A DNA stretch of 64,000 bases from NCBI RefSeq assembly GCF_048403405.1, contig NZ_CP183129.1, one strand, 5' to 3'. A program made the position numbers and the translations under genes. The stretch comes from Escherichia coli. Lineage in GTDB: Bacteria > Pseudomonadota > Gammaproteobacteria > Enterobacterales > Enterobacteriaceae. The notes under the pieces were generated by a model. The model was not told the origin of the DNA and ran no database searches. It was given only the letters and a program-made list of their open reading frames with translations. Positions 31,251-32,756 of the stretch are shown here, in pieces; position 1 is the stretch's first letter, and each line of letters opens with the position of its first letter.

Positions 31251-32756
31251 TCATGGCATGGCCATGAGCATTTTCACGTCCGCATCACCGTCTGCTGACG
31301 TCTGTGACACGCCACCCCGCACCGCTGCCGGTGAATGATTCGCCATGAAATGTTCAAACAGGGCGGTTGTGGATGCAGAGACCGGTTCGGCCTTACCTGA
31401 TCCCGCAGCCAGCACAGCCCGGGCGTTCTCCACGGTCATTCCCGGGCAGGCCGCCAGTTTTTCAGCCTGCGCTTCTGCCCCTTTTGCCTCATCCAGGGCC
31501 ATGATCTGATCACGAAGTGAGGGCCCGGCATCCGCCAGTGGTGCAGCCGCCAGGATCGGGCGGGCTTTTTCCACCGTCATCTCCGGCATCGCCGCCAGCG
31601 TTGCCGCCAGTTGTTCACGACCGTTCGCTTCTTCACACGCCATAATGCGATCGGCTTCACTCTGCGCGGATGCCACCGGCTGCTGCGGTGCCGCCGCGGC
31701 CAGAATCGCCCGGGCCTGTTCAACGCTCATGCCCTGTTGCCCTGCCAGCATCGTGGCAAGCTGTTCACGTCCTTTCGCTTCCTGGCATGTCAGGATCCCC
31801 ATCACTCGCTGGTTCTCCTGCACGGCGGCTTCCGTTGCAGTTAATTGCGGCATAGTGCCTCCTCTGACATTACTGTTCAGCGCCGTGGCCATCACACTGA
31901 TGGCATCCGACGCATTGATTAATTCATCCGCCAGCCCGGCCTCAATGCCGGACTGACCTTCAAAAACGGCGGCCTCTGTTCCCGTGACCGCATCCACAGA
32001 CAACCCGGTATACATCGCCACTTTTTCGGCAAACATCCGGTGCGCCGCATCAATCCGCTGCTGCATGTCCTGGCGAACCTCTGCCGGCAACGCTTCAAAC
32101 TGATTGCCATCCACCTTGTGCGCCCCGGCATAAATCAGCGTGATATCCACACCGGCCTGCGCCAGATGACCGGCATAGCTGACATGGCTCATCATCACGC
32201 CAATGGAGCCGATACGGGATGTCTGGGTAACCAGCCGTCGGGAGCAGGCCGACGCCAGCAGCATGGCTGCAGAACAGGCAGTGTCATTGCACAGTGCCCA
32301 GACCGGCTTCTGCTGACGGAGGCGGTAAATCATGTCAGCGCAGTCAAACGCGCCGGCGGCCTGCCCGCCCGGACTGTCAATGTCCAGCAGTACGCCCCGC
32401 ACCTGGCTATCCGCCATTGCCTGCTGAAGACAGGCGACAATGCCGTCATAGCCTGTCATTCCGGAAAATGGCCGCATACCGCCCAGCCGGTGCACCAGCG
32501 TGCCGGTCACCGGCAGTACAGCAATACCGTTCACCACCCGGTAAACACGGGCCGGTCGTTTACCTCCGGCCATGTACTCGTCCGTTTCAGCCAGCATTCC
32601 GGGAGCATCAAGCTGTACCTGTTGTTGTGGTACCGAAAGACTTGCTGCCCCTATCTCGCGCCCGAGCGCGCAAAAGAAAACCCGCGCATAGGCGGGCTCC
32701 AGAAGCAGCGGTTCATTGAATGCTGCGGCAATAATGTGTGAAAGATTACGTCTCAC
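31251..32756 (-). CDS. C: head maturation protease/scaffold C (S49/ClpP-like) with nested Nu3-like scaffold region
   Basis: 501-aa ORF; N-terminal S49 peptidase region similar to lambda gpC; C-terminal region with three degenerate tandem repeats. Confidence 0.9.
   Translation of the reverse strand: MRRNLSHIIAAAFNEPLLLEPAYARVFFCALGREIGAASLSVPQQQVQLDAPGMLAETDEYMAGGKRPARVYRVVNGIAVLPVTGTLVHRLGGMRPFSGMTGYDGIVACLQQAMADSQVRGVLLDIDSPGGQAAGAFDCADMIYRLRQQKPVWALCNDTACSAAMLLASACSRRLVTQTSRIGSIGVMMSHVSYAGHLAQAGVDITLIYAGAHKVDGNQFEALPAEVRQDMQQRIDAAHRMFAEKVAMYTGLSVDAVTGTEAAVFEGQSGIEAGLADELINASDAISVMATALNSNVRGGTMPQLTATEAAVQENQRVMGILTCQEAKGREQLATMLAGQQGMSVEQARAILAAAAPQQPVASAQSEADRIMACEEANGREQLAATLAAMPEMTVEKARPILAAAPLADAGPSLRDQIMALDEAKGAEAQAEKLAACPGMTVENARAVLAAGSGKAEPVSASTTALFEHFMANHSPAAVRGGVSQTSADGDADVKMLMAMP

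What the first reader, a model, noticed from the sequence alone, without database searches (positions are those of the whole stretch)
31400..31860. Three degenerate tandem repeats in the C-terminal scaffold region of the C protease gene
The C-terminal third of the 501-aa C product contains three consecutive repeats of about 45 aa (pattern EA(K/N)GREQLA…MxxEQARAILAAA) not obvious in lambda C/Nu3. Repeat expansion in the scaffold domain could alter capsid size control. Several shadow ORFs in the track overlap this region.
Basis: seen in the sequence. Interest (0 to 1): 0.3.

Follow-up and report, generated by a model that had tools for sequence, protein, structure and literature searches.

The report
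Phage 21 scaffold "Tri box" repeats
The three repeats are real, but they are the "Tri1/Tri/Tri3 boxes" already annotated in the head protease/scaffold gene of coliphage 21, here in a common E. coli prophage: three copies of a small three-helix domain that phage lambda carries once, with no sign that they change capsid size.

Summary
Observation confirmed, and already known. The 501-aa gene at window 31251-32756 (- strand) is the lambda C homologue. It is 97.4% nt and 487/501 aa identical to phage 21 gene 5. Its C-terminal third holds three tandem copies of a 38-45 aa module (aa 314-358, 366-407, 413-455), with 19-22 identities per ~36 aligned residues and z = 13-17 against shuffles. GenBank M81255 (phage 21 head operon) already marks these segments as "Tri1 box", "Tri box" and "Tri3 box" ("function unknown; putative"). 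It places them inside nested gene 6, the Nu3 analogue, which starts at the Met equivalent to window M302 behind a strong Shine-Dalgarno.

What I add:
- The unit is predicted to be an autonomous three-helix bundle (AF2 pLDDT 92.5).
- It has no Pfam family and no solved structure.
- It occurs once in lambda, phi80, the Casjensviridae phages examined and about 2,660 protein clusters; two to four copies are rare.
- The triplication is old and selected. Synonymous sites are saturated, boxes are 63-76% identical to Gifsy-1, and linkers only 14-40%.
- The allele is in 1,866 of 5,426 complete E. coli genomes.

Most likely the boxes are protein-docking modules of the prohead scaffold, also carried by the protease; this is inference. 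The capsid-size idea has no support: genomes are 42.9-54.4 kb with three boxes and 42.9-64 kb with one. Low interest.

The parts
31251..32756 (-). Head maturation protease / scaffold gene (lambda C homologue, the phage 21 gene 5 allele), 501 aa
   Evidence: ORF. Pfam S49 and PHROG 53 matches. 1467/1506 nt and 487/501 aa identical to phage 21 gene 5, same length, no gaps. 61% identical to lambda C over the protease part. It sits between the portal gene (32746-34338) and the decoration gene (30867-31214) and MCP gene (29781-30809).
31875..32525 (-). S49 (SppA-like) protease domain, about aa 78-294; Ser162 and Lys214 align with lambda Ser166 and Lys218
   Evidence: TIGR00706 SppA_dom at aa 78-291. 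Pfam PF01343. SppA crystal structures match at E=2.6e-16. Residue alignment.
31858..31865 (-). Shine-Dalgarno AGAGGAGG, ending 4 nt upstream of the internal ATG
   Evidence: Sequence. The same site is annotated as the putative RBS of gene 6 in phage 21 records. An equivalent SD+ATG is found in Gifsy-1, lambda, phi80, JS26 and PMBT19.
31251..31853 (-). Nested in-frame scaffold gene (phage 21 gene 6, the Nu3 analogue), 200 aa, starting at M302
   Evidence: Phage 21 annotation of gene 6 / 'scaffolding protein' maps exactly here. Many database proteins start at this Met, e.g. P0001 with 154 member sequences. Expression itself is not shown here.
31683..31817 (-). Tri1 box (aa 314-358), orthologue of lambda's single copy; carries the longer N-terminal helix
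   Evidence: Profile hit i-E 2.4e-25. The phage 21 'Tri1 box' maps to window 31683-31786. 28/44 identical to the lambda unit. AF2 unit model pLDDT 92.5. Clusters with the lambda and phi80 units in the NJ tree.
31536..31661 (-). Tri2 box (aa 366-407)
   Evidence: Profile hit i-E 9e-27. The phage 21 'Tri box' maps to 31536-31646. 76% identical to Gifsy-1 Tri2. It is the copy lost or shortened in rare in-frame deletion variants.
31392..31520 (-). Tri3 box (aa 413-455); the most diverged copy (GAE instead of GRE)
   Evidence: Profile hit i-E 4.8e-26. The phage 21 'Tri3 box' maps to 31392-31505. 63% identical to Gifsy-1 Tri3.
31254..31391 (-). C-terminal tail (aa 456-501) with two short conserved motifs: TALFEHFMANHSP, and the terminal DADVKMLMAMP
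   Evidence: AF2 predicts helices at aa 461-474 and 492-497, both low confidence. Equivalent motifs are present in lambda (ALDRLMQGAP; DAVNDLLNTPV) and in Casjensviridae proteins. Only 28% identical to Gifsy-1 overall.
31611..31956 (+). Three overlapping antisense 'shadow' ORFs (31611-31844, 31645-31956, 31670-31855): not genes
   Evidence: Listed mechanically. No Pfam match above noise. They lie opposite a conserved, selected coding region.

Best explanation
The repeats are the Tri1, Tri2 and Tri3 boxes of a phage-21-type head gene. The gene makes two products: the full-length S49 protease (gp5, the lambda C analogue), and, from an internal Shine-Dalgarno plus ATG at M302, a 200-aa scaffolding protein (gp6, the Nu3 analogue). 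Both products end in the same C-terminal sequence.

That shared part is a string of three independently folding ~40-aa three-helix bundles, joined by short flexible Ala/Pro/Gln linkers and followed by a short tail. Lambda and most relatives have one such bundle.

Most likely mechanism (inferred, not shown): each bundle is a protein-protein docking module of the transient prohead core, contacting other scaffold molecules, the inner face of the capsid shell or the portal. Because the protease carries the same modules, it is co-assembled into the prohead. After assembly the protease destroys the scaffold. Three modules give each molecule three binding sites instead of one, without changing capsid geometry.

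Shown: the identity with the phage 21 feature, the nested-gene signals, the domain prediction, the distribution and the selection. Inferred: the binding partners and the valency effect.
For: Identity with the known feature:
- 97.4% nt identity to phage 21 gene 5.
- GenBank M81255 annotates the Tri1/Tri/Tri3 boxes and nested gene 6 with its RBS, and these map onto the repeats.
- OL657228 calls the nested product 'scaffolding protein'.

Nested start:
- AGAGGAGG-N4-ATG at M302. An equivalent SD+ATG is found in Gifsy-1, lambda, phi80, JS26 and PMBT19.

Domain nature:
- AF2 on an 89-sequence unit alignment gives pLDDT 92.5 and pTM 0.75, with three helices.
- The whole C-terminal region is predicted as three such units with low-confidence linkers and pTM 0.24, i.e. 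no fixed mutual arrangement.
- Independent BFVD models of S49 proteases of Salmonella phage 37 and Synechococcus virus S-ESS1 superpose at TM 0.90 and 0.83.

Scaffold role:
- The unit hits PHROGs named head scaffolding protein and capsid assembly protein (Nu3).
- Lambda Nu3 interacts with Nu3, C and E in two-hybrid tests and is needed for portal incorporation (PMC3224144).

Selection:
- Synonymous sites between boxes are saturated while the motif is kept.
- Box-by-box orthology holds between E. coli and Salmonella phages.
- Against Gifsy-1 the boxes are 63-76% identical, the linkers 14-40% and the protease part 70%.
- The array is intact, at full length in one piece, in the best match of nearly all sampled rows among the 1,866 of 5,426 complete E. 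coli genomes that carry it.
Against: - No experiment or structure shows what a Tri box binds. The original annotation says 'function unknown'.
- No solved structure contains the module.
- Purified lambda Nu3 has been reported as intrinsically disordered, going by a paper title seen; the paper itself was not readable here. That sits uneasily with a confidently predicted folded unit.
- Rare in-frame variants lacking part or all of Tri2 exist, so three copies may not be strictly required. It is unknown whether those prophages are viable.
- The extreme C-terminal tail, not the boxes, could be the capsid-binding element, as in other scaffolds.
- Use of the internal start is predicted from sequence only.
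Confidence: 0.6

Rival explanations
1. Capsid-size ruler. The extra boxes lengthen the scaffold and thereby change the size or T-number of the capsid.
For: Scaffold proteins set capsid size in some systems, such as P2/P4 Sid and 80alpha/SaPI CpmB (general knowledge). The nested product is 200 aa here, against 131 aa in lambda if lambda also starts at its conserved SD-ATG.
Against: Three-box phages have genomes of 42.9-54.4 kb (phage 21, D2, 4A7, ev017, PhiR12_1, Gifsy-1). These overlap the lambda and phi80 genomes (48.5 and 46.2 kb), and one-box phages reach 64 kb. The MCP is 342 aa against 341 aa, 62% identical, with a homologous decoration protein. The AF2 model shows flexible beads on a string, not a rigid ruler.
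Confidence: 0.07
2. Protease-handling elements. The boxes are recognition or docking sites for the S49 protease domain, or they mask it, and so time the degradation of the scaffold. More boxes would mean more cleavage units.
For: The module was found essentially only in or with S49 head proteases. The full-length hits are 400-530 aa, the BFVD hits are all S49 peptidases, and the short hits examined lie at contig ends. The module is as conserved as the catalytic domain. Nu3 is degraded by C (table in PMC3224144).
Against: There is no direct evidence. The poorly conserved Ala/Pro/Gln linkers are more plausible cleavage regions than folded bundles. The Nu3-E and Nu3-Nu3 interactions point to assembly contacts.
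Confidence: 0.15
3. Portal-nucleation module. The boxes bind the portal dodecamer specifically (gp4, lambda B) rather than the shell, and extra copies strengthen initiation of assembly.
For: Nu3 is required for incorporation of B into proheads, and B, C and Nu3 form an initiator complex (PMC3224144). The lambda-type portal gene always lies next to the gene in the loci examined.
Against: Two-hybrid tests did not detect Nu3-B but did detect Nu3-E. Lambda capsid and scaffolding proteins alone are reported to assemble portal-less shells (PMC9295703), so the scaffold must also act on the shell.
Confidence: 0.15
4. Not a protein feature: a chance low-complexity Ala-rich similarity, or a repeated DNA/RNA signal such as regulatory sites.
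For: The region is 23.5% Ala and 62% GC. One phage 21 record marks two 'CII binding site' pattern matches inside gene 6.
Against: z = 13-17 against composition-preserving shuffles. The unit profile finds about 2,660 proteins at E<=1e-3. DNA identity between boxes is only 57-67%, with saturated third positions. The CII pattern occurs 7 times in the window against 15.3 expected by chance.
Confidence: 0.02

Closest known systems
Phage 21 genes 5 and 6 with Tri1/Tri/Tri3 boxes (GenBank M81255; complete genome OL657228). From my own recollection, unverified here, the source is Smith & Feiss 1993, Gene 126:1-7.
   Same: Same gene length (1506 nt), 97.4% nt and 97.2% aa identity. Same nested start and RBS. 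The same three boxes at the same positions. Same gene order: portal, protease/scaffold, decoration (shp), MCP.
   Different: 14 amino-acid substitutions, 10 of them in the C-terminal 200 aa. The copy here is a chromosomal prophage whose RefSeq-style annotation in identical genomes lists only 'S49 family peptidase', with no nested gene or repeats.
Lambda C / Nu3 (and phi80 gp05)
   Same: Homologous S49 protease (61% identical), the same nested-scaffold logic, and the same module, C-terminal motifs and internal SD+ATG.
   Different: Lambda has one box (aa 357-401), preceded by a ~48-aa low-complexity leader. Here there are three boxes after a 12-aa leader. RefSeq places the lambda nu3 start at aa 239, where this gene has Ile.
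Gifsy-1 STM2605 and other Salmonella and enteric prophage C homologues
   Same: Three boxes in the same order with box-by-box orthology, and the same internal SD+ATG.
   Different: About 57% identity in the scaffold part. Linkers and tail are largely unrelated, and the C-terminus is extended.
P22-type scaffolding proteins with a C-terminal helix-turn-helix coat-binding domain (also phi29 and 80alpha scaffolds)
   Same: The functional analogy considered here: a small helical element of a transient scaffold that docks on the capsid protein (PMC11922011).
   Different: No sequence or fold match was found. The unit here has three helices, is repeated, and is shared with a protease.
Tandem three-helix-bundle binding domains (staphylococcal protein A, GA modules, Ebh/Embp)

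Membership tests
Phage 21 gp5/gp6 (lambda C/Nu3-type S49 head protease with nested scaffold) | S49 (SppA-like) serine protease domain with the catalytic Ser and Lys | tested here: met
   PF01343 E=1.3e-35. SppA structures match at E=2.6e-16. Ser162 and Lys214 align with lambda Ser166 and Lys218. That these are the catalytic residues is established knowledge, not tested here.
Phage 21 gp5/gp6 (lambda C/Nu3-type S49 head protease with nested scaffold) | Position in the head operon between the portal gene and the decoration and major capsid genes | tested here: met
   ORFs. Annotation of an almost identical E. coli genome region (41,484 of 41,506 nt identical to the window). Same order in lambda, phi80, phage 21 and Gifsy-1.
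Phage 21 gp5/gp6 (lambda C/Nu3-type S49 head protease with nested scaffold) | In-frame internal translation start producing a separate scaffolding protein | tested here: inconclusive
   A strong SD+ATG at M302 is conserved across relatives and annotated in phage 21. Actual initiation cannot be tested with these tools.
Phage 21 gp5/gp6 (lambda C/Nu3-type S49 head protease with nested scaffold) | Three Tri boxes in the scaffold part | tested here: met
   Three profile domains coincide with the mapped Tri1/Tri/Tri3 annotations.
Phage 21 gp5/gp6 (lambda C/Nu3-type S49 head protease with nested scaffold) | Scaffold is transient: degraded by the protease and absent from mature heads | not testable with these tools
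   Known for lambda Nu3 (table in PMC3224144). No data for this prophage.
DNA-level tandem repeat (VNTR or slippage array) | Head-to-tail copies recognisable at nucleotide level | tested here: not met
   TRF finds no array with a period near 141-150 nt. Nucleotide identity is 57-67% and the longest shared word is 10 nt.
P22-like helix-turn-helix coat-binding scaffold domain | Sequence or fold similarity to the solved HTH domain | tested here: not met

The most novel reading that the evidence does not exclude
The Tri box is a distinct domain family that is in neither Pfam nor the PDB: a ~40-aa three-helix bundle found in about 2,660 protein clusters, from enteric phages to a cyanophage S49 head protease. 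On this reading it is the universal docking element through which lambda-type scaffolds and their proteases engage the capsid shell or portal. Its copy number (1 in most phages; 2, 3 or 4 in several independent lineages) would be an evolvable valency dial for prohead assembly.
Probability: 0.3. Interest if true: 0.4.

Novelty: already known. Interest (0 to 1): 0.15.

Why it matters
As a discovery it matters little. The triplication was annotated three decades ago in phage 21, and this is the same allele in a very common E. coli prophage.

The useful residue is practical:
1. Automated annotation labels the gene only 'S49 family peptidase' and omits both the nested scaffold gene and the repeats.
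2. The Tri box appears to be a well-conserved domain, confidently predicted to fold, that has no Pfam entry and no structure. Its function is still formally unknown even in lambda, so it is a cheap and well-defined target for structural and genetic work on how lambda-type scaffolds work.
3. Natural variants with 1, 2, 3 and 4 copies provide a ready-made series for testing valency.

Tried and rejected
- Tandem Repeats Finder on the DNA found nothing relevant. The repeat is protein-level only.
- Pfam and NCBIfam have no family for the repeat region.
- The search for homologous proteins returned mostly contig-end fragments. These showed copy-number variants but were poor for statistics. Some 2-copy fragments could be defective prophages, and in complete genomes the array is almost always intact.
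- Foldseek against the PDB and the profile search against PDB sequences gave only noise: NiFe hydrogenase, and designed toroid/TRP repeat proteins that share a helix-cap motif.
- I asked whether the short (64-300 aa) proteins carrying the module are genuine stand-alone scaffolds. The two looked up (P0123, P0092) sit at the very start of ~1-kb contigs. They are probably truncated genes called from the internal start, and no conclusion was drawn.
- I first read lambda 'ALDRLM' after its single box as a remnant second box. I rejected this because the same motif follows the last box in all relatives.
- The CII-binding-site pattern inside the gene occurs at chance level.
- Medina et al. 2011 on gpNu3 (PMC3247018) is not held, and no held paper cites the phage 21 head-gene paper by title.

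Full report
**1. What is at the coordinates**

The finding lies inside a 1,506-nt ORF on the minus strand (window 31251-32756, 501 aa). The product has a Peptidase_S49 domain (PF01343, aa 146-293, E=1.3e-35) and matches SppA_dom at aa 78-291. It also matches PHROG 53 'head maturation protease' over its whole length and SppA crystal structures (E=2.6e-16).

The gene is flanked by a lambda-B-like portal gene (32746-34338), a D-like decoration gene (30867-31214) and an E-like major capsid gene (29781-30809), all on the minus strand. These are 61%, 54% and 62% identical to lambda B, D and E, and the protease part is 61% identical to lambda C.

The surrounding 41.5 kb is 41,484/41,506 identical to a lambdoid prophage next to potB in E. 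coli strain 7/2. That prophage has a full set of terminase, head, tail and lysis genes.

**2.

The C-terminal third contains three tandem copies of one module:
- aa 314-358: ENQRVMGILTCQEAKGREQLATMLAGQQGMSVEQARAILAAAAPQ
- aa 366-407: SEADRIMACEEANGREQLAATLAAMPEMTVEKARPILAAAPL
- aa 413-455: SLRDQIMALDEAKGAEAQAEKLAACPGMTVENARAVLAAGSGK

Pairwise alignments give 19-22 identities over 35-36 columns. The scores of 82-103 compare with about 23.5 ± 4.6 (maximum 49) for shuffled partners, so z = 12.8-17. A profile of the unit finds exactly three domains here (i-E 1e-25 to 1e-27) and one in lambda C at aa 357-401.

At DNA level the copies are only 57-67% identical. Third codon positions match at 13-16 of 38, identical residues use the same codon less than half the time, and the longest shared word is 10 nt. 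This explains why Tandem Repeats Finder reports nothing. The triplication is therefore old and has been maintained at the amino-acid level.

**3. It is already described**

A tblastn of the repeat region against the phage collection hits 21 records, among them phage 21. The GenBank record M81255 ('Bacteriophage 21 head gene operon') annotates the following:
- gene 5 (1,506 nt);
- an in-frame nested gene 6 (603 nt) with a putative RBS;

The complete phage 21 genome OL657228 calls the two products 'capsid protease/scaffolding protein' and 'scaffolding protein'.

The window gene aligns to phage 21 gene 5 without gaps, at 1467/1506 nt and 487/501 aa. The annotated boxes map to window 31683-31786, 31536-31646 and 31392-31505, which are the cores of my three units. 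Gene 6 maps to 31251-31853, starting at M302. From memory, and unverified here, the source is Smith & Feiss 1993, Gene 126:1-7. No held paper cites it by title.

**4. The nested gene**

Upstream of M302 the sequence reads AGAGGAGG-cact-ATG. An equivalent strong SD+ATG sits just after the S49 domain in Gifsy-1 (M302), lambda (M309, lambda nt 5342), phi80 (M311), Serratia phage JS26 (M305) and Salmonella phage PMBT19 (M305). The conserved Gly-Gly before the Met in the alignment of E. coli and Salmonella homologues is what encodes this SD.

Many database proteins begin exactly at this Met, for example P0001 with 154 member sequences. Some of these are truncated genes on short contigs.

So the gene most probably makes two products: a 501-aa protease and a 200-aa scaffold sharing the C-terminus. 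Expression was not tested.

**5. What the unit is**

AlphaFold2 on an 89-sequence alignment of units predicts a compact three-helix bundle with pLDDT 92.5 and pTM 0.75. It consists of a long helix, the EAKGR turn, a short helix, a PGMT-type loop and a third helix beginning with an S/T-x-E/D-x cap.

The whole 202-aa C-terminal region is predicted as three such units with low-confidence linkers and no fixed mutual arrangement (mean pLDDT 63, pTM 0.24). Two weak helices follow in the tail.

Independent BFVD models of S49 proteases from Salmonella phage 37, Synechococcus virus S-ESS1 and an uncultured siphovirus superpose at TM 0.83-0.90.

**6. Distribution and copy number**

A profile search of 1.84 billion representative proteins finds 2,660 proteins at E ≤ 1e-3 and 558 at E ≤ 1e-10. 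Multi-copy proteins score highest and so are enriched among the best 150; even so, 139 of those have one copy, 8 have two and 3 have three.

One copy is found in lambda, phi80, the Casjensviridae phages JS26, JC01, PM87, PMBT19 and MA11, and Vibrio phage K288.

Three copies occur in the phage 21 group, in Gifsy-1 and other Salmonella prophages, and in two further ~50%-diverged enteric clusters (P0086, P0087). An E. coli lineage (P0028) has four copies, with boxes 2-4 nearly identical to each other. Two non-enteric proteins (P0102, P0092) carry independent duplications.

In a neighbour-joining tree of units (short sequences, low resolution), all first boxes group with the single lambda and phi80 box, while the Tri2s and Tri3s of E. 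coli and Salmonella phages mostly group by position. The triplication therefore predates the divergence of those phages.

Against Gifsy-1 the boxes are 76%, 76% and 63% identical. The linkers are 14-40% identical, the tail 28% and the protease part 70%. Each box is thus as constrained as the enzyme.

Within E. coli the allele is very common and stable. The full gene matches at ≥80% coverage in 1,865 of 5,426 complete genomes, and the repeat region in 1,866. In the sampled rows the match is nearly always a single ungapped 477-nt piece. A rare exception is a 57-nt in-frame deletion in NZ_CP163448.1. Fragmentary database proteins show other in-frame losses or hybrids of Tri2 (P0008, P0009, P0011, P0019, P0022), and their viability is unknown.

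**7. How it most likely works**

Established background for lambda:
- Nu3 is the transient scaffold and C is the protease.
- Nu3 is needed for portal incorporation.
- Two-hybrid tests detected Nu3-Nu3, Nu3-C and Nu3-E interactions (PMC3224144).
- Capsid and scaffolding proteins alone are reported to form shells (PMC9295703).

In other phages, small helical elements of scaffolds dock on the capsid protein N-arm (PMC11922011).

Combining this with the anatomy above, my best reading is that Tri boxes are docking modules of the prohead core. They are shared by scaffold and protease, so the protease is packaged with the scaffold. Three beads on flexible linkers would give multivalent, avidity-enhanced contacts. 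This step is inference, and I put it at roughly 0.45-0.5. The identification with the phage 21 Tri boxes is near certain.

The alternatives are:
- a docking or regulatory element for the S49 domain;
- a portal-specific module;
- a size ruler;
- a non-protein or chance feature.

Genomes are 42.9-54.4 kb with three boxes and 42.9-64 kb with one, and the MCPs are the same length. The chance or DNA-signal idea is refuted.

One caveat remains. Lambda Nu3 has been reported as intrinsically disordered, going by a paper title seen; the paper is not held. That needs reconciling with the confident fold prediction.

**8. Shadow ORFs**

The three plus-strand ORFs over the repeats have no family support. 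They lie opposite a strongly conserved coding frame in a 62% GC, Ala-rich stretch. They are antisense artefacts.

**9. Verdict**

The feature is already known as the Tri boxes of phage 21 gene 6 and is present in about a third of complete E. coli genomes. Interest is low (0.15).

The residual value lies in three points. The Tri box appears to be a widespread, foldable and still uncharacterised scaffold domain. It has natural variants with 1 to 4 copies. Current automated annotation misses both the nested scaffold gene and the repeats.

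Noticed in passing
window 31851-31865 (- strand); L001 (lambda) locus 2843-2845 = lambda nt 5342: A strong SD+ATG directly after the S49 domain is conserved in the window gene (M302), Gifsy-1, lambda (M309), phi80, JS26 and PMBT19. Phage 21 records start the nested scaffold gene there. RefSeq lambda starts nu3 70 codons earlier (nt 5132, aa 239), where phage 21 and the window have Ile (ATT). The lambda annotation and the conserved site disagree, and I could not resolve this with the papers held.
   Followed up: partly
L015 20001-21506 (E. coli 7/2, identical to the window gene): RefSeq/PGAP annotation of identical prophages gives only 'S49 family peptidase'. The nested scaffold gene and the Tri boxes annotated in phage 21 are not carried over, although the allele is in 1,866 of 5,426 complete E. 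coli genomes.
   Followed up: yes
protein P0064 (174 aa, E. coli, one 9.4-kb contig): The N-terminal ~90 aa are unrelated to the S49 protease and by eye resemble an HK97-type prohead protease start. They are fused in frame to Tri3 plus the C-terminal tail. This is either a natural hybrid between two head-protease types or an assembly chimera.
   Followed up: no
proteins P0028, P0088, P0089 (E. coli); P0102, P0092 (non-enteric): A distinct E. coli lineage has four boxes, with boxes 2-4 almost identical to one another, which indicates recent amplification. Two unrelated lineages show independent two-box duplications. Expansion of this module has therefore happened repeatedly.
   Followed up: partly
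H129, NZ_CP163448.1 165366-165785; proteins P0008, P0009, P0011, P0019, P0022: Rare in-frame deletions or Tri1/Tri2 hybrids remove part or all of Tri2. One is a 57-nt gap in a complete genome. Whether these prophages still make heads is unknown.
   Followed up: partly
window 31601-31614 and 31835-31848 (+ strand): Matches to TTGYN6TTGY are annotated as 'CII binding sites' inside gene 6 in the phage 21 genome record. The whole window has 7 matches against 15.3 expected by chance, so these are chance matches.
   Followed up: yes
window 31254-31391 (aa 456-501): After the last box, all relatives share two short motifs: F/L-x-x-F/L/A-M-x(3-5)-P, and an acidic, hydrophobic extreme C-terminus (DADVKMLMAMP here, DAVNDLLNTPV in lambda). 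This tail could be the actual capsid-binding peptide, as in other scaffolds. It was not tested.
   Followed up: no
L012 15-437, L013 21-617: Many 'short' database proteins carrying the module start a few bases from the end of ~1-kb metagenome contigs. These apparent stand-alone scaffold genes are probably truncated protease genes called from the internal start.
   Followed up: partly
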